DNA from: Kiritimatiellia bacterium
Lineage (GTDB): Bacteria > Verrucomicrobiota > Kiritimatiellia > RFP12 > DVOR01
Assembly: GCA_017558005.1 (NCBI GenBank)
Contig: JAFYWN010000023.1
Location: 1,159 to 65,158 of the forward strand
DNA length: 64,000 bases
Direction: 5' to 3'
Part shown: one piece after another, positions 13,441-39,486 of the stretch
Layout of the letters: each line of letters starts with the position of its first letter
How positions within the stretch are numbered: the first letter of the stretch is position 1
Made by a program: the position numbers and the translations under genes
Notes under the pieces: generated by a model
What the model saw: only the letters and a program-made list of their open reading frames with translations
The model's database searches: none
What the model was told of the DNA's origin: nothing

Positions 13441-13943
13441 TACACTAAAAGTGTAGCAAAACGGGGACAAGTAGTCAACTCTACCGACCCAGGTAAGCGA
13501 AAATTTTGCGATAAGTAGGCGAAATTTCCACTTGAAAATCGGCGACTTTGGTCACCCAATTTCGCTGACTTTGCTCACCGATTTCGCTGATATTGCTCGC
13601 CAATTTCGCTGATATTGACCCGAAATTGCTTCAGCTTTCCCCCAAAAAGCTGCTACCTGTTGATAACTTTTCTAGCACCTCTACCCCAAATTTTCGCAAG
13701 GAAGCCGCTGTAGCGGAGTTGATTTGCCCCTATTTTTGCTTTATCTCTTTATTTATCAAGGAGTTATGCAGTTTTTGCAAAGTTGAGCAAAAGTGCCTAA
13801 AATCCGCCGACGTGCCAAGAAAAAATCAAAAAACTGCGTCGAAAAAGGTGAATTGTTGATAACTTGTTGATAACTCAAAAAAGTTTTCAACAGGCGAAAT
13901 TTCGCTGAAAAAATGAAAAAAGTGACAAACCTGCGCACGAGAG
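13441..13943. repeat. Origin-like non-coding module, copy A (inverted homolog of 38982-39486)
   Basis: TGTTGATAA at 13658, 13854, 13865; TTTTCAACA at 13884; IHF consensus TATCAAGGAGTTA 13754-13766; 22-bp repeats 13558-13623; 34-bp block identical to copy B. Confidence 0.85.
13450..13478 (-). promoter_or_regulatory. Outward sigma70 promoter at end of module A
   Basis: TTGACT-17 bp-TACACT with TG extension; conserved in copy B. Confidence 0.6.
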
Positions 13944-14037
13944 TTTAAAGGGACAAAAGAGACGGACGAGACGAAAGGGATGAACGGAGAAAAGAAAGAA
14001 AAGGATAAAAAGGATGGAAAGAATGGAAGGGATGATG

Positions 14038-14352
14038 TGGGGGCAACGCCGCCCCCACACCCCGCGGCAGGACTGAGTCCTGCACGCTACGCATCCTAAC
14101 GGATGCTTTTTGGTGCTCACGGAAAAGGAAGGCGAGTCCGTAGGACGAGCACGGGGTGGAGCGTACCACGCTCCCGCGGGTGCAGGGGTGCGACCCCCTG
14201 CCTTGGGGGGCGCGGGGGCGAAGCAGCCCCCACCTCTTCCACATCGTCTTTAGTGCTCCTGCTTTTCTCCGTCTTTACAGGCGAGTCCGTAGGACGAGCA
14301 CGGGGTGGAGCGTACCACGCTCCCGCGGGGCGTGGGGCTGCGCAAGCCCCAC
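14038..14352. repeat. Cluster of GC-rich REP/MITE-like palindromes with an exact 51-bp direct repeat
   Basis: 14130-14180 identical to 14279-14329; hairpins GGGGGCAACGCCGCCCCC, GCAGGACTGAGTCCTGC, GCATCCTAACGGATGC. Confidence 0.75.
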
Positions 14353-14582
14353 ATCATCTCTATCACTTTTATCACTTCCCTTTTTAAGTCTCCCCTCGCC
14401 ATCCTGAAGCATGGGTGATTAGAAGACGGGGAGGATAACGTGGGGCTTGGTACCATTGTAAGCAGGGGCATTTTTCCCTAAGGAGGCGATTAAATTTAGG
14501 TGCAATGGTAGGAGTATTTGTGTTATTATCGTTCTCACGATTGAACTTATTATCAATTTAGAATTGAGTTTTGGAGTTTTTT

Positions 14583-15839
14583 ATGAAACAGATTCCTCGT
14601 TTGTTTACGGCACTTTGCGTTGCGACGCTTGCCTCTGTTACTGCCTTTGCGGCGCCCAACCCGAAGTGGGTCCCTGCACAGTCTGACTTTGTCATCACGA
14701 TTGATGGTCTTGATGTAGCCGATCCTGCTGCAGACCAGGTGTGGAAGGATGCCTATGCAAAGATTGGCATGCCGCAGCAGAGTCCGCTTGAGACGATCAA
14801 GTTGCTTGAAGAAGAATGCCCTGGCATTACCGAAGTCTTCAAGGTGGCCTTTGGTCTCAATGATGATTTTACGGCAACGGATACGAAGTCGCTCACCTTT
14901 GCTTGCACGTTGCAGAAGGAACCTGGCGAGGATGATTTGGATGACACCTCGGCGGTGCTCGTCCTTGAAAATCCAAAGGCAAACCTTGACACCTTGGAAG
15001 CCACACTCCGCAAGACGCTTGATGCGAAGTTGGGAGAAGGGGCACACTTCGTCCGTGAAGGCAAGTGGTTGACCCTCCGTGAAAAGAATGTTGCAGGCAA
15101 GCCTGAAAAGGGCGTGCTGGCAATCTGCCAGATTCCCGAAGGCTATTTGGTGACGCTTCAGCGCACGATGAAGGCCGTGGAGACGATTGGTTCGGACTCC
15201 TTTAAGGCAATTACGGCCGATCATCCCTTGATGAAGGCCTTTACCCCGCGCCCGGACGGCACGCGTTTGGCAACGACTTACCTCTTGAAGGACCTCTCCG
15301 AACTCGCCACGCGCCTTTCTACGCCTGAAACACTTCAGGTTATCAAGGCTCAGCACCCCGCAGTGCTCAAGTCCGATGCTGTAACGGTGACCTCCATCAC
15401 CCGTGGCACCACCACGGACATCGCTTTGACCATCGCCACCGAAGAGCCTACCGCCGCCCAGCAGTTGCAGGAAGTCGTCCTTGGTTACAAGATGATGGCT
15501 CAGATGATGGGTCCTGCCATCCTCGGCAAGCCCGACTCGAAGATTGTCGCCTTCATCTCCAAGATTGCTTGCACGGTTGAGGGCAATAATCTCGTGGTTA
15601 AGGCCCAAATCACCCCCGAGACCTTCATTCCCGTCCTTGAAGAAATCGCAGCGATCCAGGCTCAGCAACAGCAGATGGCCGAAGCGCTTGACCTCGATGA
15701 CGAAGAAGAAGACGAAGCGGAAGAAGATTTGAGCGATGTACCTGCCATGACGAAGGAAGAAGCAGCCGCTATTTTGGATGCTTTGGACAATGACGTGGCA
15801 CCTGCCACGCCTGCCGTTGGTGTACCTGCCACCAAGTAA
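14583..15839 (+). CDS. Exported hypothetical protein with acidic C-terminal tail
   Basis: Sec signal peptide (MKQIPRLFTALCVATLASVTAFA), long ORF, GGAG RBS, terminator after. Confidence 0.75.
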   Translation: MKQIPRLFTALCVATLASVTAFAAPNPKWVPAQSDFVITIDGLDVADPAADQVWKDAYAKIGMPQQSPLETIKLLEEECPGITEVFKVAFGLNDDFTATDTKSLTFACTLQKEPGEDDLDDTSAVLVLENPKANLDTLEATLRKTLDAKLGEGAHFVREGKWLTLREKNVAGKPEKGVLAICQIPEGYLVTLQRTMKAVETIGSDSFKAITADHPLMKAFTPRPDGTRLATTYLLKDLSELATRLSTPETLQVIKAQHPAVLKSDAVTVTSITRGTTTDIALTIATEEPTAAQQLQEVVLGYKMMAQMMGPAILGKPDSKIVAFISKIACTVEGNNLVVKAQITPETFIPVLEEIAAIQAQQQQMAEALDLDDEEEDEAEEDLSDVPAMTKEEAAAILDALDNDVAPATPAVGVPATK

Positions 15840-15861
15840 GGCGATTCACCTTTCTTTTAAC

Positions 15862-15895
15862 GCCCGGTTTTCCTTTAGGTTAGCCGGGCTTTTTC
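15862..15895 (+). terminator. Intrinsic terminator
   Basis: GCCCGGTT/AGCCGGGC + TTTTT. Confidence 0.65.
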
Positions 15896-15921
15896 ATCTG
15901 ATGATGTGCTAAAATACCAAT

Positions 15922-16527
15922 ATGAATGAAATCTTACCGCACGTTTTGGAATTGAAAGAAGACGATAAGGTCTTCGAGCACCCCTTTCTCGCCCCAGGCA
16001 TGCCCCCCATCGAACTTGAGATTGGCTGTGGCAATGGACGCTTTATCGCGGCGCGCGCCACCAAAAATCCTGACCAACCCTACTTGGCAGTGGAGCGCAT
16101 GATGGAGCGTCTGCGTCGGTGCTCACGCAAAGCGCAAAATGGTCCCGAGGGTGAATTAAAGAATCTTGATTTCATTCGCGTGGAAGCAGGACGCTTTGTG
16201 CGCGAGCTTTTGCCCGATCACTGCCTCAAAGCGATGTACCTCTTCTTCCCCGATCCGTGGCCCAAGCGCCGCCACCACAAGAATCGCTTCTTCCAACGTG
16301 AGATGTGCGACACCCTCACCCGCCTCTTCGTTCCTGGCGGCATTATGTACATCTCCACAGACCACGAAGAGTACTTTAAAGAGATGTACAAATATCTCTC
16401 TGAAGACACGCGTTTCAAAGAAATCGCCCCCCTCATCCGTGAAGAAGATGAACAGACCGACTTTGAACGTCTCTTCCTCTCCAAGGGTGACCCCATCTAC
16501 CATTGCGCGTTCCAACTCCAAGACTAA
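15922..16527 (+). CDS. trmB: tRNA (guanine-N7)-methyltransferase
   Basis: LEIGCGNGRF, FFPDPWPKRRHHKNR, STDHEEY, TDFE. Confidence 0.95.
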   Translation: MNEILPHVLELKEDDKVFEHPFLAPGMPPIELEIGCGNGRFIAARATKNPDQPYLAVERMMERLRRCSRKAQNGPEGELKNLDFIRVEAGRFVRELLPDHCLKAMYLFFPDPWPKRRHHKNRFFQREMCDTLTRLFVPGGIMYISTDHEEYFKEMYKYLSEDTRFKEIAPLIREEDEQTDFERLFLSKGDPIYHCAFQLQD

Positions 16528-16544
16528 GCCCAAAGGAGGCCGTC

Positions 16545-17366
16545 ATGCGCGTCGACATCCATACCCACTCATTTCCCGCCCACAAGGCACCCGAAGTGAT
16601 TACTACGCTCGTGCGGAAATCGGCGAGCCGTTGCCCCCTCACCCCTCAAGGCAATGGCACGATGGCCGACCTCATCCGCCAAGAGCGCGAAGACGGCTTT
16701 GATCGTTACGCCATCTGCCCCATTGCGGTGCGCCCAGAACAGTTCAACTACATGACGCGCTTTATGCACGCATTAAGTTCGGGCGCTTGCGGTGAAGAAG
16801 CGAAGGAACGCGTCATCCCCTGTGTCTCGTTGCACCCCGATGACAAAGATGCCGAGTTACACATCCAAACGCTCATTGAACTCGGCGCAAAGATGGTCAA
16901 ACTGCACCCCTACTTCCAGCAAACACGCTTAGATAGCCGCAAGATGATTCGGTTATTGCGCATTATCACGGAAGCGGGGCTCCCCATTCTCTGCCACACA
17001 GGCGGCGACATCTCCTACGATAGCGACCCCATGGCGGCGCCCTTGCAGATTGTCAACGTCTATCGTCGCGTGCCCAATCTGCGCATGATTTGCGCCCACT
17101 GCGCCTCTTGGCGTCACCCTGAAGCCGTGCGCTTCCTCCTCGGTCGCTCCATTTACGTGGATCTCTCCTACCAAAAACAAGGTGGCACCGAACCCACCGT
17201 GCGCGCCTTTGCGGAAAAACATCCGCAGGACTTCGTTCTCTTTGGAAGTGATTGGCCTTGGGGACGCCCTGGTAAACACGCCGCCACGATTGCCTCATGG
17301 GATATCGCGCCCTCGCGTTTAGAGGCAATTATGGGGGGCAATGCGGCACGTTTGCTCAAGCTCTAA
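16545..17366 (+). CDS. Amidohydrolase_2 family metal-dependent hydrolase
   Basis: DIHTH, VKLHPYFQ, CHTG, CAH, LFGSDWPW, GGNAARLL. Confidence 0.85.
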   Translation: MRVDIHTHSFPAHKAPEVITTLVRKSASRCPLTPQGNGTMADLIRQEREDGFDRYAICPIAVRPEQFNYMTRFMHALSSGACGEEAKERVIPCVSLHPDDKDAELHIQTLIELGAKMVKLHPYFQQTRLDSRKMIRLLRIITEAGLPILCHTGGDISYDSDPMAAPLQIVNVYRRVPNLRMICAHCASWRHPEAVRFLLGRSIYVDLSYQKQGGTEPTVRAFAEKHPQDFVLFGSDWPWGRPGKHAATIASWDIAPSRLEAIMGGNAARLLKL

Positions 17367-17496
17367 TCGCCTTTTTGAAGAAAAAGCGCACGACTCCCAA
17401 ACATTAGACTCGTCAAACAGGCCTTCACTTTGTTATAGTTGAACTAATTCGCACGAAGTATGTTCACTTTTGTGCATCAATCCAAGGAGAAAGACC

Positions 17497-17667
17497 ATGG
17501 CTTACAAAATTACTGACAAGTGCGTTGCTTGCGGAACCTGCGCTGGCGAATGCCCCGTTGAAGCAATCGCCGCTGGCGATCCCACCTACACCATCGACCC
17601 CGCTAAGTGCGTGAGCTGCGGCACCTGCGCTGGCGTTTGCCCGATGGAAGCAATCGTCGAAGACTAA
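17497..17667 (+). CDS. Clostridial-type 2[4Fe-4S] ferredoxin
   Basis: CVACGTCAGECP and CVSCGTCAGVCP; AGGAG RBS. Confidence 0.95.
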   Translation: MAYKITDKCVACGTCAGECPVEAIAAGDPTYTIDPAKCVSCGTCAGVCPMEAIVED

Positions 17668-17690
17668 TTCGCTTCGGTGATTCATTGGCG

Positions 17691-17726
17691 ACAGAGATCC
17701 GTTCATTCGGGTCTCTGTTTCTTTTT
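17691..17726 (+). terminator. Intrinsic terminator
   Basis: ACAGAGATCCG/CGGGTCTCTGT + T-run. Confidence 0.7.
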
Positions 17727-17771
17727 ACCCACGCACTATGCTACACTGTCCCTATGAAAGCGTGCACAGAT

Positions 17772-18443
17772 ATGAAGCGAATCCTTGTCCTCGGCGCCAC
17801 CTCTGGCATCGGTAAAGCCTTAGTGGAGCAACTCCGCGCACTCGGTTATGAAGTCATTGCGGCGGGGCGTCGTAAAGCCTTGCTTGACGCCCTCGGAGGA
17901 GAGACACTGGAATTAGATGTCACCGCACCTGATGCCGTAGAAAAGGCGGCCGCCACAGGGGCAGATACGGTTCTCTTTAATGCAGGCTTCGGTGAACGCA
18001 CCCCGATGCCAGATGCGAACCGAACCGACCGCGCGCTACAAGTCAACATACTCGCATTTGAACGTTTTGCGCGCTGGGCACTCACCACGTGCACCTGCTT
18101 TGCCGCGACTGCGAGCATCGCTGGCATTCGGGGGTTGGAAGATACCAATGGTTACTCCGCGTCAAAGGCGTACATGATTAACGCCATGGAAGGCTACCGT
18201 CGAAAGGCTCGCCACGGAAAGCATCCCTGCCGATACGTCACCCTTATGCCAGGTTTTGTAGACACCGCCATGGGACAAGCCTCCACCTTTTGGCGATGCA
18301 GTCCAGAAGTCGCCGCGAAGGTCATCATTCGTGGACTTCTGCGCCGTAAAGCCGTCGTCTACGTTACCCCACGGTGGCGCCTCATCGCCCTCCTCTTACG
18401 CGCCCTTCCGCGTGCCCTCTTTGAACGCATCCCCATCTGCTAA
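17772..18443 (+). CDS. Short-chain dehydrogenase/reductase
   Basis: GATSGIG, NAG, ASIAG, YSASK, PGFVDT. Confidence 0.9.
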   Translation: MKRILVLGATSGIGKALVEQLRALGYEVIAAGRRKALLDALGGETLELDVTAPDAVEKAAATGADTVLFNAGFGERTPMPDANRTDRALQVNILAFERFARWALTTCTCFAATASIAGIRGLEDTNGYSASKAYMINAMEGYRRKARHGKHPCRYVTLMPGFVDTAMGQASTFWRCSPEVAAKVIIRGLLRRKAVVYVTPRWRLIALLLRALPRALFERIPIC

Positions 18444-18566
18444 GCCCGCAGTGCGCACTTCAGCCCTTAATCGGGCAAGAATTTCTCCGCTTACACCGCT
18501 AAAATCCTCCACAACCGTCGCGGGATGTGGCATAATATCTTATTAAAGAGAAAGAATACCATCGCC

Positions 18567-18902
18567 ATGTCTCAAACAGCCCCGCTTTTACACCCAGAGC
18601 TCACTGTTTCCGGTTGTGACACCAACGCATTAGTTGAGGTCTCCAAACAGTTTGCCGAATTTGAATTTGAAGCCCTCTATCGCAACGAGGTCACTGCGGC
18701 TCAAGTCGCCGCCGACAAGGCCGATTGGGCGGCATTGGGCGCCTCAATGGGCATCGTCTATCAATCCCTCTGCGATGGTGAAAATGAAAAGGTGATGGGC
18801 GCATTACACACCATTGAGACCATTCTCATGCGACATGGCGTCCTTGTGCCACGTCCCACCGTTAATCCTGCCACACAGGAGGGTCCAACCGATGGCGAAT
18901 AA
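18567..18902 (+). CDS. Hypothetical protein
   Basis: ORF overlapping the next gene start, upstream TG-CATAAT -10, typical codon usage. Confidence 0.65.
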   Translation: MSQTAPLLHPELTVSGCDTNALVEVSKQFAEFEFEALYRNEVTAAQVAADKADWAALGASMGIVYQSLCDGENEKVMGALHTIETILMRHGVLVPRPTVNPATQEGPTDGE

Positions 18903-19500
18903 TGCAAAGACCGCCCTACTCTGCGCCTACACCTTGGCCAAAGCCAAACAGTACGCAGAAGCAGAAGCCCTCATCCTCTCCCATGAAGAACTCGCCAAGA
19001 CCCCCGAGGCGATCGACCTCTTGGCGCGTATGCGCTTAGAAGAAGGCGATGAAGCCGAAGCGCGTCGCTTGTGGCAGAGTATCCAAGCAGTCTATCCTGA
19101 ACACGCCCCCTCACGCACCGCGCTCAAACTCATCGGGAAGCGTCCATTCAAAATCGATTGGGTGAGCATCTTGTCGGTACTCGCATTGGTGCTCTTTTGC
19201 GTTGGCTTTTTCTTAGGTTCCTCCATCACGAAAGCCCCCCAACCGAACGTGACCACAGTCCAGTGGGACAAGATCCCCACGCAAGCGAAGTTGGATGCGT
19301 TGAGTGTTTACAAAGGAGGTGTGAAGCGTGTTTGCATTGCCTCGCACTTCTTCTCTGACCCCGACCGCATCTTTAGCCGTCAATTGCTCACCGAATACGT
19401 CGGGAAGGCTCTTGACCTTCCTGCTTCTGCGATTTTCATTGGCGAAGCACCCGAAGCCCTTGGGGAAGAAGCCATCACCGTGGATCTTTTACGTCAATGA
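18892..19500 (+). CDS. TPR-containing single-pass membrane protein
   Basis: TPR-like helices (YAEAEA...DLLARM...GDEAEARRLW), TM segment; GGAGG RBS. Confidence 0.7.
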   Translation: MANNAKTALLCAYTLAKAKQYAEAEALILSHEELAKTPEAIDLLARMRLEEGDEAEARRLWQSIQAVYPEHAPSRTALKLIGKRPFKIDWVSILSVLALVLFCVGFFLGSSITKAPQPNVTTVQWDKIPTQAKLDALSVYKGGVKRVCIASHFFSDPDRIFSRQLLTEYVGKALDLPASAIFIGEAPEALGEEAITVDLLRQ

Positions 19501-22688: not shown

Positions 22689-23648
22689 ATGAAGTTGAAA
22701 TCCGTATTGTTGACCGCAAGCTGCGCCCTCTTAATCGCCTTTGCTGGTTGCGGAAAAGAAGATGCCGCCGAAGCCGCTCGTAAGGAACGTGCCGCCGCAT
22801 TGCGCGCCGAAGCACGCACCGCAGAAGCGCAGGGCAATATCACCGCCGCCGAAACGTTCTATCGCCAGCTCTTGGTCGTTGACCCCTCGGATGCCGCCGC
22901 CCACTTGAGCCTTGCCAACCTCTCGCATGACGCTCGCAAGAACTACTTGGACGCAATTTACCACTATCAGCGTTACCTTGACCTTGTCCCCGACTCGGAC
23001 AAGACCCAAATGGTCACCGATCGACTCGCCTCTGCTCGTACGCTCTTGGCAAACCAGATGGCCGCTGAAATCGTTGCACGCGAACAGCGTATCCTCACGG
23101 AAGAACGCGACACCTTGCAAGCCGAGGTAAACGAACAAAAGGCCGCCATTCGCAAGCTCGAAAACACCGTTGAGTCGCGCAACAATGATATTGAAGATTT
23201 GAAGGCTGAAATCAAGCGCCTCAATCGTTTGATTGACCAATTGAAGACGATTGAAGCCGAGTCTCGCGCCTCCCAGGCCGCCTTACTTGAACAAGCTCGC
23301 AAGGAACTCGAAGCTGAACGTTCGAAGCCCGACCTCTCTGGCACCGATGATCGCGTGAAGGCCGCTCGTGAAGAGGCCGATGCCATCCTCAATGAACCCG
23401 ATGGTGGCGCCTCTCGCATTGACACCGCGCTCCGCGCAAAGGCTGAAGGTGCGGGCGATGAAATCCCCGTCGCCGCTTCGCCCACCGCTGGCAAGCGTTA
23501 CCTCGTACGTCCGGGCGACCGTTACTCTTCGCTCGCACGTGAAGCATATGGTAATGCAGCCCTCTGGCCGCGCATTCGCGATGCAAACCGTTCCACGACC
23601 AACCCGGATGGCCGTTTGCTCGCAGGTGAAACCATCTTGATCCCCTAA
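22689..23648 (+). CDS. Lipoprotein with TPR, coiled coil and C-terminal LysM domain
   Basis: Lipobox FAGC; TPR; YLVRPGD...LA...YG...W...AN...L.AGETILIP. Confidence 0.85.
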   Translation: MKLKSVLLTASCALLIAFAGCGKEDAAEAARKERAAALRAEARTAEAQGNITAAETFYRQLLVVDPSDAAAHLSLANLSHDARKNYLDAIYHYQRYLDLVPDSDKTQMVTDRLASARTLLANQMAAEIVAREQRILTEERDTLQAEVNEQKAAIRKLENTVESRNNDIEDLKAEIKRLNRLIDQLKTIEAESRASQAALLEQARKELEAERSKPDLSGTDDRVKAAREEADAILNEPDGGASRIDTALRAKAEGAGDEIPVAASPTAGKRYLVRPGDRYSSLAREAYGNAALWPRIRDANRSTTNPDGRLLAGETILIP

Positions 23649-23711
23649 GATTGACCTATTTATCAGCGGGCGCACCTCCGTGCGTCCGCTTCTTTATCCC
23701 CATTTGCCGCT

Positions 23712-23978
23712 ATGCAACAGAAGAAGTATCGGAAATACGCTTTGCGCGAACATAGTTCTGACGCCTTTAGGTTACACACCGGCGACATTTCCGAAACATA
23801 TCCTGGCTTTTCCAATCGCAGACGCCGCACGGCATTAGCGCGCCTCTTGGGGGCCGGCGGCACGCATGATACACGAAATGACCCGACCGCCTTTCCCCTT
23901 CGACGGTCATGGCATCGCTTCTGCTTTGTACTCATCGTGCTAACCCTTATTTGGTTGCTCGGCTTTTTCCTTCCCTAA
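23712..23978 (+). CDS. Small hypothetical protein with C-terminal TM helix
   Basis: Fills the gap between operon genes; hydrophobic C-terminus. Confidence 0.5.
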   Translation: MQQKKYRKYALREHSSDAFRLHTGDISETYPGFSNRRRRTALARLLGAGGTHDTRNDPTAFPLRRSWHRFCFVLIVLTLIWLLGFFLP

Positions 23979-30111: not shown

Positions 30112-31448
30112 AGAACCTTGCCTCCCTCCCCCTCATCCTCCTCTTTGCCTACGCACTCCCCCAATTCGGCTACGCACATGACCACGAGCATGACCATGGC
30201 ACCACGTGTAGTGGAGACCATGCACATGAAGTCGAAGCTCATGAACACAAACACGAGCATGAACATGACCATGGTGCCACGTGTAGTGGAGACCACGCGC
30301 ATGAAGTCGAAGCTCATGACCATAAACACGAACATGACCATGAACATGGTGCCGCGTGTAGTGGAGACCATGCACATGAAGTCGAAGTTCATGAACACAA
30401 ACACGAGCACGATCATGAACATGGCGCCACGTGTAGCGGAGACCATACACATGAAACGCCTGCGCTGCGAGCTGTGGTTGTTCCAGAGTCCGCGCAACGC
30501 ATCATCGGCTTAAAAACAGTCGCCGCGCCCCCTCGTCAATTACACGCCATGCGCCGGCTCATTGGTCGTTATGAACCGTTGCCCGAAGCGCGCCAAACGG
30601 TTGCGTCGCCCATCACGGGGCGCCTCACGTTGCTTGTCCGCAGTTTAGATCGCGTGGCCAAGGGTGACGCTCTCTGCACCATCGCCTCACCCGAACTCAC
30701 TGCCCGCGCCGCCGAAATCGCCCTATTGCAAAAGCGTCTTACCATCTATCGCGACCTCCAAACGCCGAATGCCGCGCTGGAAACCGAGCTTGCCGTTAAG
30801 CAAGCCGAATACAAGGCGCTCCTCCTTGATGCAGAGGAGAACGAAGGCTCTGTGGTTTTGCGCGCATCCTGCGCAGGACAGGTGGATGCCTTTGACGTAG
30901 AAAGTGGCGCATGGGTAGAAGCAGGCGCACCCGTCTTGCGCCTTATCCAACCCCAAGCGCTGCGCTTTAAGGCATTGATTCCCGCTACGGAAGCACAGAC
31001 ACTCCAAGATCGCTTGCACGTCCATGTAGAAGAAGCTCATGGCGAGTTGCGCCTCGGCATCGGCTCTGAAAACGGCCTTACCCCCGTCTACATCTACTTC
31101 GAAACCGCTCCGAAATCGGCGCGTGCCGGCGCAAAGGCTGATGTCATCTGCACGATGGAGAGTCACGAAACGCCGCTCCTTTCTGTTCCCTCCTCCGCGA
31201 TTATCACCGTCAACTTGCAGCCCTCCGTCTTTATGCGTGACCCTCACGATGCCACGCGCTTCATCTGCGTACCCGTCACGCCTGGGCTTAGCGCCGCAGG
31301 GTGGACCGCTGTTGAGGGGCTACCGTCACCCACAACCGAAGTTGTCACCGACGGCGCCTACGAACTCAAACTCGCCCTCCCTGGCAATGCGCAAAAACCC
31401 GCGGGCCACTTCCACGCCGACGGCGTCTATCACGAAGGCGAACACTAA
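30108..31448 (+). CDS. RND membrane-fusion protein with His-rich repeat domain
   Basis: VASPITG, lipoyl-like hybrid motif, VPSSAI, VVTDGAY; N-terminal His repeats. Confidence 0.88.
   Translation: MKNLASLPLILLFAYALPQFGYAHDHEHDHGTTCSGDHAHEVEAHEHKHEHEHDHGATCSGDHAHEVEAHDHKHEHDHEHGAACSGDHAHEVEVHEHKHEHDHEHGATCSGDHTHETPALRAVVVPESAQRIIGLKTVAAPPRQLHAMRRLIGRYEPLPEARQTVASPITGRLTLLVRSLDRVAKGDALCTIASPELTARAAEIALLQKRLTIYRDLQTPNAALETELAVKQAEYKALLLDAEENEGSVVLRASCAGQVDAFDVESGAWVEAGAPVLRLIQPQALRFKALIPATEAQTLQDRLHVHVEEAHGELRLGIGSENGLTPVYIYFETAPKSARAGAKADVICTMESHETPLLSVPSSAIITVNLQPSVFMRDPHDATRFICVPVTPGLSAAGWTAVEGLPSPTTEVVTDGAYELKLALPGNAQKPAGHFHADGVYHEGEH
30177..30455 (+). repeat. In-frame 75-bp tandem repeat (~4 units)
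   Basis: GTGTAG(T/C)GGAGACCA at 30206, 30281, 30356, 30431; encodes HEHKHEHEHDHGATCSGDHAHEVEA. Confidence 0.95.
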
Positions 31449-32813: not shown

Positions 32814-32888
32814 CTTTCATGCTTCTTCGAACGGCTTTCGCGCGCGATTAGGGTGTAATGTGATATTCTTATAAGAAAAGGAGACACT

Positions 32889-33830: not shown

Positions 33831-33848
33831 ACACAGAGCGTAACCTCT

Positions 33849-34685
33849 ATGAATCGCACCTCTCCCAGTGATGTTAAAGCATGGTGTATCGGACGGGGAT
33901 TCCATCCGAACAAAACGCTCGGCCAAAACTTCCTCATTGATCGCAATATTCTCACCGCGCTCGTGGATGCCGTTGGCGCTGGCGAAGGAGATCGCGTCCT
34001 GGAAGTGGGGCCTGGTTTAGGCGTAATGACCGAGGCTTTGCTCCAACGTGGCATCCACGTTACTGCGATTGAAAAAGATCCCGCACTGGCTGCGTGGCTT
34101 AGAGACTCCCTTCTGAAGGAGTATCCCAACACTCTCACCCTCATTGAAGGCGATGCATTAGAGACCGATTGGGAGCCCCTCCTCGCACAAAACTTCAAGG
34201 CCTTCGCCTCCAATCTGCCCTACTCGGTGGGTACGCGCATCCTCATGGATTTAATCTGCCAAGCAGGCGCTCCCGAACGTTTGGTCACGCTTGTCCAACA
34301 AGAGGTCGCCGAACGTTTCGCCGCGCGTCCCACTACGCCCGAACGTGGTACGGCCGCAATTTGGATTCAGACGGATTACGATGTGCAGATTGTGCGTTCC
34401 GTAAAGCCGAGTTGCTTCTGGCCACCACCCGAAGTCACGAGTGCCGTGGTCGCAATGCAGCGCCACCAACGTTCCACCCTCTCCAATGAGGGAAAGGCAA
34501 TGTTACGCGCGCTTTCCAAACAGGTCTTTACCCAACGTCGCAAGCAGCTCGGCACCGTTCTGAGAAAATCTCCTGCGCCGTTCAATAAGGCCGATCCTAT
34601 CGCCGCAAATATTGAACCTACGCGACGCGCCGAAACGCTCACCCTTCCCGAATGGGAAGCGCTCACCGCCACCCTCTGCCCTTAA
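33849..34685 (+). CDS. rsmA: 16S rRNA dimethyladenosine transferase
   Basis: LGQNFLID, LEVGPGLG, SNLPY, FWPPPEVTS, QRRKQL. Confidence 0.95.
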   Translation: MNRTSPSDVKAWCIGRGFHPNKTLGQNFLIDRNILTALVDAVGAGEGDRVLEVGPGLGVMTEALLQRGIHVTAIEKDPALAAWLRDSLLKEYPNTLTLIEGDALETDWEPLLAQNFKAFASNLPYSVGTRILMDLICQAGAPERLVTLVQQEVAERFAARPTTPERGTAAIWIQTDYDVQIVRSVKPSCFWPPPEVTSAVVAMQRHQRSTLSNEGKAMLRALSKQVFTQRRKQLGTVLRKSPAPFNKADPIAANIEPTRRAETLTLPEWEALTATLCP

Positions 34686-34763
34686 TCAATACCGCCCTCT
34701 GCGACCCCGCTGCACCTTGACCTTCCTCCCCGCGACACACCCCCGTGACACTTTTTAGGAGAG

Positions 34764-35540
34764 ATGACCATGCTTCAGGATATCGCCGCACCCCTCACGC
34801 TCTTCCCGCAGGCAACGCCTGCTGTAGGCGACTATGTTTTCCAGTGCAAGGGCGCCTCGGTGGCACTCACCCCATGGAGTCGCGCCGCCTCGACCGCGTT
34901 GCCTTTGGTTAAGGTTGGTGAAACCACGCTCTTCCTTGGGGCGGCACCCGATGCCGAATGGGGCACCACGCAGATTTTACGTCGGTTAGAACCCGCCGAG
35001 CTCCGCTTTGCCGCCTTCTGTGCCAATCACCTCGCCCAGTGGTATCTGAATCACCGTTGGTGTGGACGATGCGGAACAATGCTCACACGGCAGCGCGCCT
35101 CGCTCACGTGTTCGGCCTGCGGGCACGAGATTTTTCCTGTGATTGCCCCTGCTGTGATTGTGGGGCTCATCAATAACGGTCGCCTCCTCGTCACGCGTTA
35201 TGCAGACCGCCCCTATCGCGGGCCCGCCTTAGTAGCAGGCTATTGCGAAGTGGGTGAGACCGCCGAAGCGACTTGCCTCCGCGAAACGCTTGAAGAAACA
35301 GGGTTGCACATCACCCGTCTGCGCTACTTTGCTTCCCAACCCTGGGGCCTTAGCGGCTCACTCCTCTTGGGCTTCTTTGCCGAAACGGCCGATGACCACG
35401 TCATGCTCGATGATAACGAATTGGCAGAAGCCGTGTGGTTAAAATCCGATGAACTGCCCCCGCCGCCCGATGCGGCAGGCCCGCTTTCCTTGACCGCAAC
35501 GATGATTAAAGCCTTCGCCGAAGGTCAATCCATCTTCTAA
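34764..35540 (+). CDS. nudC: NADH pyrophosphatase
   Basis: Zn ribbon CGRCG...CSACG, Nudix box, SQPW motif. Confidence 0.9.
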   Translation: MTMLQDIAAPLTLFPQATPAVGDYVFQCKGASVALTPWSRAASTALPLVKVGETTLFLGAAPDAEWGTTQILRRLEPAELRFAAFCANHLAQWYLNHRWCGRCGTMLTRQRASLTCSACGHEIFPVIAPAVIVGLINNGRLLVTRYADRPYRGPALVAGYCEVGETAEATCLRETLEETGLHITRLRYFASQPWGLSGSLLLGFFAETADDHVMLDDNELAEAVWLKSDELPPPPDAAGPLSLTATMIKAFAEGQSIF

Positions 35541-35638
35541 TCTTACCTATCCCCTCTGACTGGGAGCACCCTTTCCTTGATGCTCAGAAAGCACTCCCAA
35601 ACGCGCAATCTTTTGTTTGTTTTGAAAGGAGCCACGCC

Positions 35639-37000
35639 ATGAACGCAACGCATTTTGAAGCCTGGACCGGCGGCAAGTGGACCCAAGCGCCCACCTTCCC
35701 GATTACCAAAGTCACCCAAGACAGCCGTCAAGCCTGCCTCGGTGTGCTTTATGTCGCGCTCAAAGGCGAACGCCATGATGGGCACGACTTCGTCTCGGCC
35801 GCCTTTCGTACAGGCGCGACCGCCGCAATGGTCAAAAAGGGATGGATGCCACCTGCAGATGTGGCAGGTCTCCCCCTACTCTGCGTTGACGATCCCGCCA
35901 AGGCATTAACGGACTTAGCGAAGGGCTACCGTACGACGTTGACCGCGAAGATGATTGGCATCACGGGCAGCGCAGGGAAGACCACCTTGAAGGAACTCAC
36001 TGCCGCGATGCTCTCTGGCGCAGGTCTCACGGCCGCGACGCCAGGTAATTACAACAACGAGGTCGGCCTGCCCCTCTCTCTTCTCTCTGTACCCGAAGAG
36101 GCAAAGTTTGCCGTAATCGAAGCGGGCATTAGCCATCCCAACGATATGGACCCGCTCGCAGACACGCTTGTTCCTGATGCCGCCGCGATCTCGTGCATTG
36201 GGCCGGCTCACATTGAATACTTTGGGACGGAACGCGCCATCGCCGCCGAAAAAGCAAAGTTGCTCGCCGCAGTGCCCGAAACAGGATTTGCAGTCCTTCC
36301 AGATACCTGCGCAGAATTTGAAACCTTACGCGCGGCATGCCGTTGTCGCGTGGTGACGTGTTCGCTAAAAAATGAATCGGCAGACTGGTATGGCGAACCG
36401 CTCGCAAAGGGCGTCATTCGCGTTCATCACGCCGATGAAAGCGCCGTGCTCTTAGAAACAGGATTGGCTGGAGAACACAATGCCTCCAATGCCTTAATCG
36501 CCTACGCCTTGGCACGCGAAAGTGGCATCACTGCCGCAGAAGCCCTCGTAGGCCTCACCCACTTTAAGGCGCCGGCAATGCGTTGGGAAACCCTGCGCGC
36601 AGGAAATTTCACCGTCATCAACGATGCCTACAATGCCAATCCGCTCTCTATGCGTGCAGCCTTGGAAACCTTCGCTGGCTCTGATGTGGTGGGCACCAAG
36701 GTGGTCTGCGTCGGCGATATGTTGGAACTCGGCGATGCATCAGATCGCCAACATCGCGATGTGGGCGAAGCTTCTGGCAATGGCCCGTGGCGTCTCCTCG
36801 CTGCGGTGGGCACCGCCTCGCGCGCCCTCATTGAAGGGGCGATTAAGGCGGGTTACCCCGCCTCCAAGACGGTTTGGTTCGCCACCACCGCCGAAGCTGC
36901 AGAGGCGCTCCCCTTGCTCTTGCAACCTGGCGACACGCTTCTCCTTAAAGCCTCGCGTGGCATGCGACTTGAACAAATTCTTGACGCACTGAACCGTTAA
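35639..37000 (+). CDS. murF: UDP-MurNAc-tripeptide D-Ala-D-Ala ligase
   Basis: GERHDGHDF, GITGSAGKTT, NNEVGLP, NDAYNANP, GDMLELG, KASRG. Confidence 0.95.
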   Translation: MNATHFEAWTGGKWTQAPTFPITKVTQDSRQACLGVLYVALKGERHDGHDFVSAAFRTGATAAMVKKGWMPPADVAGLPLLCVDDPAKALTDLAKGYRTTLTAKMIGITGSAGKTTLKELTAAMLSGAGLTAATPGNYNNEVGLPLSLLSVPEEAKFAVIEAGISHPNDMDPLADTLVPDAAAISCIGPAHIEYFGTERAIAAEKAKLLAAVPETGFAVLPDTCAEFETLRAACRCRVVTCSLKNESADWYGEPLAKGVIRVHHADESAVLLETGLAGEHNASNALIAYALARESGITAAEALVGLTHFKAPAMRWETLRAGNFTVINDAYNANPLSMRAALETFAGSDVVGTKVVCVGDMLELGDASDRQHRDVGEASGNGPWRLLAAVGTASRALIEGAIKAGYPASKTVWFATTAEAAEALPLLLQPGDTLLLKASRGMRLEQILDALNR

Positions 37001-37020
37001 GTGTAAGCTGCACGCCCCCT

Positions 37021-38325
37021 ATGTGGCACTTGATCCGTCAACTCTTAGGCTTGGCCCCCGCTGACCCTGCGCAACGCGACCTCACCCTCGCGTTTTGGCG
37101 CAACACCATCGGGGTCTTCATTGCCCTTCGCGTGGCGGATCTCCTTAATGCCATCACAGGACTCTACGTCATCCCCCTCTACTTGCCGATGGAAGTCCTT
37201 GGCGCGGTCTTACCCCTTATGCAAGTAGGGGCAGTCCTTGCGATCCCTGTGAGCGTCTTCACCTTAACCTTCACACGCCACCTCTGCGCCTATGCCGTGG
37301 CAGGGGATAGCGTTCGCACGCGAGGGCTTTTACGCGATGCGCTCGTCGCCACTTTGATGACCTTATGTGGGGCACTCCTCCTCGCGGCGTTGCTCATGCC
37401 GTGGATTTGTGCCATCTTACGCGTCCCCTATTCGGCGGCGGGTTACTTGGCGGTGGGTTATGGACTCCTTGCCGCCTTTACCCCGATGGCATGGTCTGCC
37501 TTACAAGCCTTACGTCGTTTTGGCACCCTCTCCATCGGCACGCTCATTGGCGCGCCGATTCGTCTCATCGCGATGATTCTCCTCTTGCCCTTGTGCGGCT
37601 TAAGCGGTTACTTCATTGGCCAGAGTCTGCCACCCCTCATTCTGCTTGGGGCAGCATGGATTACTCTGGCGCCCCTCTTACGTCAGAGCCGAACAGCCCC
37701 CTTGATGGCTTGGCGCAATGACCTCAAGCCCATGCTTCGTTATGCAGGATTCATCACCTTAGGGGTGCTTGCCGCGGCACTGCAAGGCGCGGTCATCACC
37801 TTTGTCATTCGCCATCGCCTTAGCGACGATGCCTCTGGCGCGTACTACCTCATCTCCCGATTTGCCGAAATTGCCACCTACTGCGGCACCACATTAGCGA
37901 CCGTGCTCTTTCCCTTTGCCGTTGAGGCGCATGTTCGCGGACTCTCCTCCAACCGCTTTCATGGTGGCGTCACCCTCTGCCTTCTCCTTTTAGGAGGCGT
38001 CCTCGCCGCGGGGCTCTATTGGTGGCTCCCCCCACTCCTCGCCCACCTACCCGGGCTCTCCCCCTACCTTGGTTATGAGGGGGCGGCGGCCTATCTCACC
38101 CTCATTACCACCCTCAATGCCGCTTCCACCCTCCACTTTACCCACACGGCGGCACGCGATCGCTTCACCTACCTCACCTTCGTCCTCCCCCTCACCCTCA
38201 TCCTCTCTGCCACGCTCTACTTCCTACCAAGCCCCACCCTTTTCCAAATCCTCCACCTCCTCTTCGGTGTCGCCCTCCTACAATTTATCGGGTGCCTCAT
38301 CGATGCCCGCCCCACCTCGGCATAG
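37021..38325 (+). CDS. Polysaccharide flippase-like (Wzx/MOP superfamily) membrane protein
   Basis: About 12 TM segments, IRHRLSDDASGAY...SRF...LFP pattern. Confidence 0.6.
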   Translation: MWHLIRQLLGLAPADPAQRDLTLAFWRNTIGVFIALRVADLLNAITGLYVIPLYLPMEVLGAVLPLMQVGAVLAIPVSVFTLTFTRHLCAYAVAGDSVRTRGLLRDALVATLMTLCGALLLAALLMPWICAILRVPYSAAGYLAVGYGLLAAFTPMAWSALQALRRFGTLSIGTLIGAPIRLIAMILLLPLCGLSGYFIGQSLPPLILLGAAWITLAPLLRQSRTAPLMAWRNDLKPMLRYAGFITLGVLAAALQGAVITFVIRHRLSDDASGAYYLISRFAEIATYCGTTLATVLFPFAVEAHVRGLSSNRFHGGVTLCLLLLGGVLAAGLYWWLPPLLAHLPGLSPYLGYEGAAAYLTLITTLNAASTLHFTHTAARDRFTYLTFVLPLTLILSATLYFLPSPTLFQILHLLFGVALLQFIGCLIDARPTSA

Positions 38326-38439
38326 CCACCATTCCGCGTTCTCCGTTACCCCTAAAACCTACGCACACACCCCTCTTTTGAACAAATAGGCCAAAAATGA
38401 GGGTTTCAAATTACTGATTTTATAGGCTTTGAAGGCCGT

Positions 38440-38480
38440 CTACGAACCAAAATTGAAAATTTTTCATTTTTGGTTCGTAG
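38440..38480. repeat. 41-bp near-perfect palindrome
   Basis: CTACGAACCAAAATTGAAAA-T-TTTTCATTTTTGGTTCGTAG, 20-bp arms with one mismatch. Confidence 0.9.
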
Positions 38481-38561
38481 AATTTCAACCCTCTTTCACT
38501 CCCCCCTCCTCCATCACCAATAACACCAATCCCACACATCAACAAATGCCCTCAGATGTCA

Positions 38562-38755
38562 CCACCCTCCACTTCACCCACACGGCGGCACGCGATCGCT
38601 TCACCTACCTCACCTTCGTCCTCCCCCTCACCCTCATCCTCTCTGCCACGCTCTACTTCCTACCAAGCCCCACCCTTTTCCAAATCCTCCACCTCCTCTT
38701 CGCCATCGCCCTCCTGCAATTTATCGGCTGCCTCATTGATGCCCGCCACCCATAA
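38562..38755 (+). pseudogene. Duplicated 3' fragment of the flippase gene
   Basis: 38562-38747 matches 38126-38311 with 7 substitutions. Confidence 0.9.
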
Positions 38756-38835
38756 GTAAATAGTTTGACCCAATTTACTCGATCAAGCTGGCATTCAGCC
38801 ATTGGTGCCCGCCACCCATAAGTGAATAGTTTGAC
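38734..38835 (+). repeat. 36-bp direct repeat pair separated by 30 bp
   Basis: CATTG(A/G)TGCCCGCCACCCATAAGT(A/G)AATAGTTTGAC at 38734-38769 and 38800-38835. Confidence 0.85.
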
Positions 38836-38981
38836 AGGCACACCTTCCTGCCCCTAAGGAATTGAAGGGATTTAGGCGATAGAAGCGATTAAAGCGAGTA
38901 TCGCGAGCGAAACTCTCCCTTGCGGCGAAGCCGCTTTCCCGTGGTTTCTAAAAATTCATGTAATTTCGTAAAATTCGTGCT

Positions 38982-39486
38982 TTTCCCGTGCGCGAAAAAT
39001 TCACTTTTCCCACTTTTTTATCGAATTTTCGGCTGTTGAAAACTTTTTTAAGTTATCAACACCTTATCTACAATTTAGGGTTTTTATCGCAGTTTTTGAT
39101 GAAATACTTCTGCGGAGCGGCGGTTTTCAGCACTTTTGCCCTTCTTTGCTAAAACTGCACAACTCTTTAATAAAGAAAGAGATAATGTAAAAATCTGGCG
39201 AAATCAACTCCGCTACAGCGGCTTCCTTGCGAAATTTTTGGGTTAAGGTGGTAGAAAAGTTATCAACAATTTCAGCCTTTTTGGGGGAATGCTAAAGGAA
39301 TTTCGGGTCAATATGGGCGAAATTGAGTCGGAAAACAGGCGAAATTGAGTCACCAATATGGGCGAAATTGGGTAGATAAAGTCGCCCATTTTCACTCGAA
39401 AAAGTTGCCTACTTTTCGCGGGATTTTAGCTGACTCGGGTCTGCGAAGTTGACACCTTGTCTCCGCTTTGCTACACTAAAAGTGTG
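38982..39486. repeat. Origin-like non-coding module, copy B (inverted homolog of 13441-13943)
   Basis: TTATCAACA 39053 and 39260, TTATCTACA 39064, TGTTGAAAA 39034; GGCGAAATTG at 39316, 39338, 39361; core 39201-39234 identical to reverse complement of 13692-13725. Confidence 0.85.
39449..39477 (+). promoter_or_regulatory. Outward sigma70 promoter at end of module B
   Basis: TTGACA-17 bp-TACACT with TG extension. Confidence 0.65.

What the first reader, a model, noticed from the sequence alone, without database searches (positions are those of the whole stretch)
13441..39486. Pair of inverted, diverged ~500-bp origin-like modules (DnaA-like boxes + IHF site + iterons + promoter) with no rep gene
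13441-13943 aligns colinearly with the reverse complement of 38982-39486. Conservation is concentrated in motifs while spacers vary, which suggests selection on protein-binding sites rather than recent duplication. Shared order: outward promoter TTGAC-17-TACACT whose -10 is one arm of a TACACT-N3-AGTGT palindrome; three AATTTCGC repeats at 22-23-bp (two-turn) spacing; a TGTTGATAA box; an identical 34-bp core with the CCGCT-GT-AGCGG palindrome; an IHF-consensus WATCAANNNNTTR (exact in A, one mismatch in B); two tandem TGT(T/A)GATAA boxes plus an opposed TTTTCAACA. TTATCAACA is one mismatch from the DnaA box TTATCCACA. This combination typifies iteron-plasmid origins, oriC and datA/DARS. Two copies in housekeeping context, with no dnaA, rep or integrase nearby, suggest an undescribed dispersed replication-control or nucleoid element family, or conserved relics of an unknown mobile element (inference).
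Basis: partly seen in the sequence, partly recalled or inferred. Interest (0 to 1): 0.85.

Follow-up and report, generated by a model that had tools for sequence, protein, structure and literature searches.

The report
Dispersed intergenic repeat carrying origin-type DnaA boxes
The two look-alike 500-bp stretches are two of about 44 copies of a non-coding repeat that carries the same DnaA-type boxes as the bacterium's own replication origin, points the same way as replication, and hands a promoter to neighbouring genes, which is an unusual way to scatter replication-protein binding sites over a chromosome.

Summary
A (13428-13950, +) and B (38982-39499, -) are colinear inverted copies, about 78% identical, with the motifs described. 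They are not a pair: the 2.05-Mb genome holds 45 BLAST hits, 44 of them distinct. A sister species has 42 matches, a third assembly has 39 loci, and two further same-genus genomes have diverged or weak relatives.

The copies are intergenic. They show no conserved open frame, no conserved RNA fold, no terminal inverted repeats and no partner gene. TTATCAACA is this genus's origin-type box: it clusters beside dnaA at a GC-skew switch, and box variants cluster at 22 of 23 other dnaA loci against 0 of 23 control loci. Of 149 perfect boxes in the genome, 120 lie in modules. Between orthologous copies the boxes changed at 1 of 252 sites, against 12% elsewhere in the module.

Modules favour divergent promoter regions (19 of 29). 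Their orientation follows replication direction (36 of 43). One subfamily evolves in concert, and copies mark rearrangement breakpoints. The IHF site is not conserved, and no rep gene was found.

Best reading: a selected, DNA-level platform that binds DnaA and an unknown factor and also supplies a promoter. It is not an origin. The main rival is a relic of a replicon-derived mobile element. All evidence is computational.

The parts
13428..13950 (+). Module A, a full copy of the 'young' subfamily, in the usual orientation relative to GC skew
   Evidence: Limits come from the 34-copy alignment and end anchors. Identity to other copies is 72-92%. Local skew is -0.078.
38982..39499 (-). Module B, a divergent copy with the alternative right tail. 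It is one of the 8 of 45 copies with the minority orientation relative to skew.
   Evidence: 77.5% to A; long branch. It has no positional ortholog in G023.
13441..13478 (-). A: outward sigma-70-type promoter. -35 at 13473-13478, -10 at 13450-13455 with TG. The ACACT-N3-AGTGT palindrome (13442-13454) spans the -10 and the start region.
   Evidence: The -10 arm AGTGTA is exact in 53 of 55 copies. The -35 is TTGACT in the young subfamily and TTGACA in the old one.
13556..13617 (+). A: three iterons (CCAATTTCGCTGAyrTTG) at 22-bp spacing. Further TTTCGC/GCGAAA half-sites lie at 13495-13530, 13692-13700 and 13892-13905.
   Evidence: D2, D10, I5, I9, I10. The 9-mer matches its group's majority form exactly or with <=1 mismatch in 22-28 of 27-28 copies per iteron.
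13658..13666 (+). A: box 1, TGTTGATAA (= TTATCAACA on the other strand). With its flanks it forms a 16-nt inverted pair with box 4.
   Evidence: Exact in 54 of 55 copies. I2.
13692..13725 (+). A: the 34-bp core, identical in A and B. It is the part best kept in the diverged G005 family.
   Evidence: Ortholog changes: 7 of 238 sites.
13854..13892 (+). A: boxes 2 and 3 (tandem TGTTGATAA, 11-bp phase) and the opposed box 4 (TTTTCAACA, 13884-13892)
   Evidence: 52, 52 and 54 of 55 exact. A 26-nt stretch including the tandem pair is identical to one beside dnaA.
39449..39477 (+). B: outward promoter TTGACA-17-TACACT with TG
   Evidence: The next real genes are a 66-aa ORF at 40046-40246 (L31-like by recall, not searched) and RF-1 at 40404-41483.
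39309..39380 (-). B: three iterons, spacing 22 and 23
   Evidence: D12.
39201..39268 (-). B: box 1 (39260-39268) and the 34-bp core (39201-39234)
39034..39072 (-). B: box 2 variant TGTAGATAA (39064-39072), box 3 TGTTGATAA (39053-39061), box 4 TTTTCAACA (39034-39042)

Best explanation
A and B are two members of a lineage-specific dispersed repeat family: about 44 assembled copies of about 520 bp, roughly 1.1% of this Kiritimatiellae genome.

Each copy is non-coding DNA made of arrays of protein-binding motifs:
- at one end, an outward sigma-70-type promoter whose -10 lies in an operator-like palindrome;
- about nine TTTCGC half-sites, three of them iterons in 22-bp phase;
- a 34-bp core;
- four nearly invariant boxes of the variant DnaA-box type that marks this genus's oriC.

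Proposed mechanism (inferred). The module acts as double-stranded DNA. It binds the initiator DnaA at the four boxes and an unidentified factor at the TTTCGC sites. Because the modules hold about 80% of the genome's perfect boxes, they are the main chromosomal DnaA-binding sites outside oriC. They would therefore act as dispersed initiator-titration or DnaA-responsive regulatory sites, while the end promoter drives the neighbouring gene in the same direction as the replication fork.

Shown here: copies are kept by purifying selection in place, are homogenised by gene conversion in one subfamily, and serve as substrates for rearrangement. The module is not itself an origin.
For: Family size and spread.

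DNA-level rather than RNA or protein.
- Rfam at gathering thresholds finds only 9 tRNAs in the window.
- The consensus fold of 55 copies is only -20 (+ strand) and -14.5 (- strand) kcal/mol over 527 columns, with 40 and 39 pairs and no pair changed on both sides.
- There is no codon periodicity, and many copies carry stops or frameshifts.

The boxes are origin-type.
- TTATCAACA occurs 149 times in the genome, 120 of them in modules.
- 11 of the other 29 lie within 5.4 kb around dnaA, including the same tandem pair.
- The canonical TTATCCACA occurs 18 times and is never clustered.
- GC skew changes sign at about 16-18 kb on that contig.
- In 23 other species, dnaA loci hold 168 boxes of type TGTYRAWAA in 76.9 kb, against 5 in 80.2 kb of control loci. 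22 of 23 dnaA loci have >=3 boxes, against 0 of 23 controls.
- Local alignments between the module and oriC score 52 and 36, against shuffle maxima of 32 and 30.

Selection.
- Boxes are exact in 52-54 of 55 copies from two species.
- In 7 orthologous 'old' pairs: boxes 1 of 252, iterons 5 of 189, core 7 of 238, promoter 8 of 140, other sites 348 of 2848 (Fisher p = 9e-20).

Placement.
- The gene on the left-end side diverges from the module in 27 of 35 cases.
- The downstream gene points away in 29 of 39 cases.
- Both hold in 19 of 29 cases, against 21% divergent pairs among gaps >150 bp genome-wide (p = 4e-7).

Polarity.
- The promoter is co-directional with the G-rich strand in 36 of 43 copies. 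Only 671 of 1285 genes (52%) are on that strand (p = 2e-5).
- The same direction is seen in 5 of 6 (G005 loci), 11 of 15 (named sister MAG) and 20 of 23 (third assembly). These sets are not independent.

Concerted evolution and breakpoints.
Against: - No binding, transcription or replication data exist. 'DnaA box' rests on clustering at dnaA and on resemblance to the consensus.
- The diverged family in G005 keeps the core and right half but lacks the boxes and the 22-bp iterons. The boxes are therefore not essential to the family as a whole.
- Box 1 lies about 215 bp and boxes 2-4 about 410-450 bp upstream of the predicted start, which is far for direct control of that promoter.
- Genes next to the promoter end share no theme.
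- Conservation between orthologs could be partly restored by gene conversion rather than by selection at each locus. The iteron, core and promoter site classes were chosen from the same sequences; only the box class has an outside definition.
- The polarity could come from selection on a strong promoter, or from a single-strand transposition mechanism, rather than from any role in replication.
- All genomes are draft MAGs. Map positions relative to ori and ter are unknown.
- RNA-run contigs overlap the promoter region up to 13470, about 27 nt upstream of the predicted start. This neither supports nor excludes that start.
Confidence: 0.5

Rival explanations
1. The module is a relic or non-autonomous derivative of a mobile or extrachromosomal element. 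Two versions are possible: the 'ori plus rep-promoter' part of an iteron-type replicon that lost rep, or a single-strand (HUH/Y1-type) transposon derivative. On this reading the conserved motifs served its own replication or transposition, and the host merely tolerates or exploits the promoter.
For: - The order of parts is the order recalled for iteron plasmid replicons such as pSC101: DnaA boxes, AT-rich stretch, box, three phased iterons, half-iteron palindromes, then a promoter facing outward.
- Distribution within the genus is patchy. The module query gave strong matches in 2 of 41 relatives searched, counting G000.
- One locus has the module in G023 but not in G000.
- The strong orientation bias with replication is what is recalled for IS200/IS605-type insertion into the lagging-strand template.
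- A subterminal hairpin-capable palindrome sits at the left end, and an inverted box 3/box 4 pair near the right end.
- Two RAYT-like Y1 proteins exist in the genome.
Against: - No terminal inverted repeats and no clean target duplication.
- No split copy enclosing a gene among the 45 hits.
- Rep3_N was not found in G000, G023 or G005. No TnpB-type match in G000 or G023.
- The better-scoring RAYT-like gene is flanked by a different repeat.
- No match in 72,556 plasmids. No pattern match in viral contigs. Only a 35-nt match in phage records.
- Most copies sit at orthologous sites in two species, and their motifs are under constraint since the split. Dead relics should not show this.
Confidence: 0.25
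2. The module is a propagated promoter and regulatory cassette only. The element matters as a strong, regulated, bidirectionally placed promoter region: the palindrome is an operator, the iterons are activator sites, and the boxes are either incidental or are used by DnaA as a transcription factor. On this reading it has no role in replication control.
For: - The promoter hexamers and palindrome are conserved in both subfamilies.
- The module is enriched in divergent promoter regions and usually faces a gene start.
- Homology ends about 15-20 nt past the predicted start.
- Reuse of similar promoters upstream of unrelated genes is described in PMC3575422 (listing and start of abstract seen).
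Against: - The best-kept parts are the boxes and core, 200-450 bp from the promoter. The promoter itself changed more between orthologs: 8 of 140 sites against 1 of 252 for the boxes.
- The G005 family has no promoter of its own, yet it keeps the core and right half.
- The served genes share no function.
- B's promoter lies about 570 nt from the next gene, which has its own promoter-like site.
Confidence: 0.15
3. The modules are additional functional replication origins, DnaA-dependent and without a rep gene.
For: Box clusters of the oriC type, AT-rich stretches and iterons. One 48-nt AT-rich stretch resembles the oriC spacer.
Against: - About 44 copies would mean about 44 origins.
- GC skew keeps one sign across the long contigs that carry several copies. 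The contig with A and B reads -0.06, -0.12, -0.08, -0.10 in four 20-kb windows.
- The single skew switch seen lies beside dnaA.
- Contig depth on the two sides of A is equal, 473 against 497.
Confidence: 0.02
4. The module encodes a non-coding RNA or a small protein.
For: - A single-sequence fold of A is somewhat more stable than mononucleotide shuffles (z = -3.3 and -2.4).
- A stop-free frame of 74 codons recurs in some copies.
- RNA-library contigs touch the region.
Against: - No Rfam family.
- The consensus fold is nearly empty and shows no compensatory pairs.
- There is no third-position excess: entropy by codon position is 0.62, 0.51, 0.63. Gap lengths within the aligned copies are almost never multiples of three (2 of 712 gap runs).
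- Per DNA copy, RNA-contig depth over 13404-13737 is far below that of the neighbouring genes. This is a weak measure because the data are contigs only.
Confidence: 0.03

Closest known systems
Chromosomal DnaA-box clusters outside oriC: E. coli datA, DARS1/DARS2, and the Bacillus subtilis DnaA-box clusters (recalled, not read here)
   Same: Non-coding intergenic clusters of 3-5 DnaA boxes away from the origin. They include tandem plus opposed boxes and are thought to titrate or remodel DnaA.
   Different: The known clusters are a handful of unrelated single loci. Here about 44 homologous copies of one 520-bp module carry the boxes together with iterons, a core and a promoter, and the copies are polarised with replication. 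The IHF site that datA and DARS need is not conserved here.
Iteron-type plasmid origins such as pSC101, P1, R6K and RK2 (recalled)
   Same: The order of parts matches: DnaA box(es), AT-rich region, three or more iterons in about 22-bp phase, half-iteron inverted repeats, then a promoter that in plasmids drives rep.
   Different: No rep gene lies at the promoter or was found elsewhere in the genome. The copies are chromosomal, multi-copy and flanked by housekeeping genes. No plasmid homolog was found.
Dispersed intergenic repeats with host-factor sites or promoters: BIME/RIP elements of enterobacteria, Correia elements of Neisseria, and reused 'mobile promoters' (PMC3575422, listing and abstract start seen; the rest recalled)
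   Same: Lineage-specific, non-coding, tens to hundreds of copies between genes. Some carry IHF sites or outward promoters, and they act as recombination substrates.
   Different: This element is much longer (520 bp). It has no terminal inverted repeats and is not hairpin-based. It sits in divergent promoter regions rather than at gene 3' ends, and it carries origin-type DnaA boxes and phased iterons.
IS200/IS605-derived non-autonomous elements and REP/REPIN with RAYT (the abstract of 10.1101/279083 was seen; the details are recalled)
   Same: No terminal inverted repeats and no target duplication. A subterminal palindrome is present. Orientation bias relative to replication is strong. RAYT-like genes are present in the genome.
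   Different: No conserved target tetranucleotide is seen at the left junction. The RAYT-like gene has different flanking repeats. The motifs are AT-rich protein-site arrays, not GC-rich hairpins.

Membership tests
Bacterial chromosomal origin (oriC) | Unique locus with a GC-skew sign switch, usually beside dnaA or dnaN | tested here: not met
   There are 44 copies. The contig holding A and B shows no skew switch. dnaA and the skew switch are on contig C10.
Bacterial chromosomal origin (oriC) | Cluster of the organism's own DnaA boxes | tested here: met
   Four boxes per module, of the types enriched at dnaA loci across the genus.
Iteron-plasmid origin | Three or more directly repeated iterons in helical phase | tested here: met
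   Three iterons at 22/22 bp (A) and 22/23 bp (B). They are conserved across copies.
Iteron-plasmid origin | Cognate Rep initiator gene, adjacent or in trans | tested here: not met
   The genes at the promoter end are unrelated housekeeping genes. PF01051 was found in 0 of 3 genomes. Other Rep families were not searched.
Iteron-plasmid origin | Supports autonomous replication | not testable with these tools
   This needs a replication assay.
datA/DARS-type DnaA-control site | Cluster of DnaA boxes in a fixed arrangement | tested here: met
   A tandem pair at 11-bp phase plus an opposed box, kept in 52-54 of 55 copies.
datA/DARS-type DnaA-control site | Essential IHF-binding site | tested here: not met
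   The IHF consensus is exact in A only. The majority forms lack ATCAA. The pattern is near its chance level in the window.
datA/DARS-type DnaA-control site | Changes the DnaA-ATP/ADP balance or initiation timing | not testable with these tools
   This needs biochemistry or genetics.
MITE (miniature inverted-repeat transposable element) | Terminal inverted repeats | tested here: not met
   All 18 inverted pairs found in A are internal motif pairs; none joins the two ends.
MITE (miniature inverted-repeat transposable element) | Target-site duplication, and an autonomous partner with the same ends | tested here: not met
   The junctions of 31 copies show no duplication. The one presence/absence locus has ragged borders. 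There are no split copies.
IS200/IS605-type derivative or REP-RAYT system | Subterminal hairpins and orientation bias with replication | tested here: inconclusive
   A left palindrome with 5-bp arms and an inverted box 3/box 4 pair are present. The orientation bias is 36 of 43. No conserved target motif is seen.
IS200/IS605-type derivative or REP-RAYT system | Y1 transposase flanked by, or matching, the element's ends | tested here: not met
   Two RAYT-like proteins score below the family cut-off. One is flanked by a different repeat and the other by no repeat of note.
Known RNA family (Rfam 15) | Match at the gathering score, or a conserved covarying structure | tested here: not met
   Only tRNAs match. 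The alignment fold is nearly empty.

The most novel reading that the evidence does not exclude
A bacterial lineage has spread its initiator-binding sites over the chromosome by amplifying one composite module: origin-type DnaA boxes, iterons for a second factor, and a promoter. It now uses these roughly 45 replication-polarised copies as a built-in initiator-titration and replication-coupled gene-control array. The module would descend from an iteron replicon, or from oriC itself, and be domesticated by the host.
Probability: 0.2. Interest if true: 0.9.

Novelty: new variant of a known kind. Interest (0 to 1): 0.7.

Why it matters
If DnaA binds these modules, four fifths of this genome's perfect DnaA boxes were put in place by a single repeat family. 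That would be a natural example of how sites for initiator titration or DnaA-dependent regulation can be created and redistributed quickly.

It would also show a dispersed repeat that is under purifying selection, is oriented with the replication fork, and sits in about one in five of the larger divergent promoter regions (at least 19 of the 97 divergent gaps above 150 bp).

It gives a testable variant DnaA box (TTWTYRACA) and an oriC position for an uncultured gut Kiritimatiellae genus.

In practice, the family explains contig breaks and rearrangements in these MAGs.

Tried and rejected
- ncRNA: rejected.
- Small protein: rejected.
- Sigma-54 promoter at the left end: read by eye. The GG/GC spacing is one base short and A lacks the GG, so it was dropped. 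This was no tool test.
- Rightward promoter: only a weak site, TTGCAA-17-TAAAAT at 13775-13803, in a moderately conserved stretch. Not pursued.
- A common function for the genes beside the left end: none found among the 22 left-end genes scanned (20, of which 8 without a Pfam match were rescanned; 2). The downstream genes were not annotated apart from A's and B's.
- Partner gene: flanking proteins share no family, apart from an assembly duplicate and unrelated paralogs.
- Autonomous element, plasmid or phage source: nothing found. In the metagenome scan, 39 of 46 loci, all from one assembly, carry A-type modules; 1 is a G005-like fragment; 6 are chance matches. I did not scan their neighbouring genes for rep or transposase.
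- Clean empty site: the only candidate locus has complex borders.
- Synteny with species that lack the module: the gene left of A is not next to A's right-hand gene or to L13 in 23 other species, so no ancestral empty site could be read.
- CsrA sponge idea for the purine-rich tail: no CsrA found in G000.
- RNA-library contigs: they are contigs only, without strand or ends. A part without cover, or the contig end at 13470, proves nothing.
- Literature: four searches listed no paper on a dispersed repeat carrying DnaA boxes or on repeats in Kiritimatiellae. Only listings and abstract starts were seen; no paper was read in full and no supplements were opened.
The structure, complex and protein-homology tools were not used because the element encodes no protein.
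This call repeats it with the same content.

Full report
**1. The observation**

The two stretches exist as described. The repeat finder reports three colinear inverted segments between 13442-13925 and 39001-39485, at 73-81% complementarity. The pairwise alignment shows the shared order of motifs and a 34-nt identical core.

Each copy has an outward sigma-70-type promoter at one end. In A it is TTGACT-17-TACACT on the - strand at 13478-13450. In B it is TTGACA-17-TACACT on the + strand at 39449-39477. Both have an upstream TG.

Three iterons lie at 22-23-bp spacing. TGTTGATAA occurs 5 times in the 64-kb window, always inside the two modules, against 0.39 expected.

The IHF consensus is exact in A. 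It is close to chance level in the window, and two of its five matches are the boxes themselves.

**2. It is a family, not a pair**

- BLAST of module A against the window's own 2.05-Mb, 37-contig assembly gives 45 hits, at 72-92% identity to A.
- 34 were recovered whole with flanks and 11 run into contig ends at that margin.
- Two hits are a 100% identical assembly duplicate. That leaves 44 distinct copies, about 1.1% of the genome.
- In a public DNA run that holds the locus, contig depth over the module is 36-62 times that of the flanks.

The aligned copies set the limits at about 13428-13950. On the left, homology starts about 14 nt outside the palindrome. On the right, it ends after an AAGTGAC...GCGCA block, with two alternative tails.

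**3. Distribution**

- 41 genomes were searched, counting the window's own. A sister species (G023) has 42 matches. G005 has a diverged family, with 31 matches to its own query. G015 has one truncated left part. G012 and G021 have weak fragments. The remaining 19 same-genus and 16 same-order genomes gave nothing with these DNA queries.
- A core pattern scanned over 185,579 species' genomes hit 28 loci in only two named MAG records, titled Candidatus Spyradenecus sp. and Kiritimatiellae bacterium.
- The metagenome scan found 39 A-type loci in one assembly, one G005-like fragment and six chance hits.
- Nothing was found in plasmids or viral contigs. Phage records gave only a 35-nt match.

**4. 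What it is not**

- Rfam finds only tRNAs in the window.
- RNAalifold on 55 copies from two species gives -20 and -14.5 kcal/mol for 527 columns, with no compensatory pair.
- No frame shows third-position relaxation, many copies carry stops or frameshifts, and gap lengths within the aligned copies are almost never multiples of three.
- There are no terminal inverted repeats, no target duplication and no copy split by a gene.
- Rep3_N was not found in three genomes.
- Two RAYT-like Y1 proteins exist, but the better one is flanked by a different repeat.

**5. The boxes are the genus's origin-type boxes**

This was the turning point of the analysis.

- TTATCAACA, the reverse of TGTTGATAA, occurs 149 times in the genome, 120 of them in modules.
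- Of the other 29, 11 lie in two clusters flanking dnaA on contig C10, at 18504-18843 and 23098-23885; the first cluster runs on to 18987 if TTTTCAACA is counted. They include the same 11-bp-phased tandem pair and the same arrangement of a box followed by an opposed TTTTCAACA.
- GC skew changes sign there.
- The canonical TTATCCACA occurs 18 times and never clusters.
- In 23 other species of the genus, the top 9-mers around dnaA are TGTCGATAA, TGTTGATAA, TGTTGAAAA and TGTTAATAA.
- The degenerate box occurs 168 times in 76.9 kb of dnaA loci, against 5 times in 80.2 kb of control loci. 22 of 23 dnaA loci have three or more boxes, against 0 of 23 controls.
- A 26-nt stretch of the module is identical to oriC, and a 48-nt AT-rich stretch is similar beyond shuffles.

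That DnaA binds these boxes is an inference from these data and from the resemblance to the textbook consensus.

**6. Selection, concerted evolution and rearrangement**

The four boxes are exact in 52-54 of 55 copies. This includes the 'old' subfamily, whose copies are only 72-78% identical to A.

Most G023 copies lie at sites orthologous to G000 copies, with flanks 85-99% identical.

In seven orthologous old pairs, changes since the split are:
- boxes: 1 of 252;
- iterons: 5 of 189;
- core: 7 of 238;
- promoter and palindrome: 8 of 140;
- other sites: 348 of 2848.

Only the box class was defined independently of these sequences.

In the tree, old copies pair up by locus, whereas 'young' copies cluster by genome although they occupy orthologous sites. 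That is the signature of gene conversion.

Copies also mark breakpoints:
- A's ortholog in G023 has a different upstream neighbour.
- The gene left of A has no module in G023.
- B's two flanks lie on different G023 contigs, next to DNA that G000 lacks.

**7. Placement and polarity**

These figures use a crude ORF set (>=130 aa).

- The promoter end faces a diverging gene in 27 of 35 cases.
- The other end faces a gene reading away in 29 of 39 cases.
- Both hold in 19 of 29 cases, against 21% divergent pairs among gaps above 150 bp (p = 4e-7).
- The served genes are unrelated. They include a YccF-like protein, an ABC ATPase, EF-P, DnaB, isocitrate dehydrogenase, MoxR, fumarase, HsdR, GrpE and ankyrin and LRR proteins.
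- The module's orientation follows GC skew. The promoter fires along the G-rich strand in 36 of 43 copies, while genes overall show almost no strand bias (671 of 1285).
- A follows the rule and B does not.
- Related assemblies show the same direction: 5 of 6, 11 of 15 and 20 of 23. These sets are not independent.

**8. Reading**

The module is best seen as a selected, DNA-level nucleoprotein platform. It carries origin-type DnaA boxes, sites for a second and unknown TTTCGC-binding factor, and an outward promoter. It was multiplied and is kept uniform by recombination.

Its layout mirrors an iteron replicon without rep, so descent from such a replicon, or from oriC, is plausible. A purely selfish relic remains the main rival. 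Extra origins, an RNA gene and a protein gene are unlikely.

The G005 family, which keeps the core but lacks the boxes, warns that the boxes may be a later addition.

Everything about binding, titration and regulation is inferred. Section 5 and the ortholog test are the strongest computed support.

Noticed in passing
G000 contig C10:18350-24000 (outside the window): Putative oriC. Two AT-rich clusters of TTATCAACA-type boxes flank dnaA (C10:21508-22965, - strand), with a GC-skew sign change at about 16-18 kb. The variant box consensus TTWTYRACA recurs at dnaA loci across the genus.
   Followed up: yes
window 14040-14370 and many other places in the genome: A separate family of GC-rich hairpin repeats: three successive stem-loops, the last followed by a T run. 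It is often found to the right of the module and also on its own, and is repeated at 14130-14180 and 14279-14329.
   Followed up: partly
window 13950-14035: Purine-rich tandem units of about 10 nt lie between the module's right end and the hairpin repeats, and their length varies among copies. RNA-library contig depth per DNA copy is highest over 13905-14238, which is weak evidence because the data are contigs only. No CsrA gene was found in the genome.
   Followed up: partly
G000 C14:83947-85104 and C15:56572-57585: Two RAYT-like (REP-associated tyrosine transposase) proteins of 385 and 337 aa, both below the family cut-off. The first is flanked on both sides by its own REP-like repeats.
   Followed up: partly
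window 38126-38311 and 38562-38747: A 186-nt direct repeat (96% identity) lies next to module B and overlaps the end of the 434-aa gene. The first copy marks the point where homology with the sister species stops.
   Followed up: partly
window 30176-30455: A tandem repeat of 75-nt units (3 overlapping copies of 130 nt, 87-88% identity) lies inside a long ORF.
   Followed up: no
window 48669-48942 and 62318-62989: tRNA arrays with duplicated genes: Asn-Asn-Met, then Lys-Gly-Lys-Gly and Thr.
   Followed up: no
G000 C2:116425-119277 and C33:331-3183: The two contigs share an identical stretch that includes a module copy and a 631-aa gene. This looks like an assembly duplicate.
   Followed up: partly
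G000 C1:8082-28508: An open reading frame of about 6809 aa starts 889 nt from the promoter end of a module copy.
   Followed up: no
G000 C15:95308 and C32:69423: Short solo sequences resemble the module's left end (CACGCACACTTACAG...). The C15 one lies at the junction of a rearrangement relative to the sister species.
   Followed up: partly
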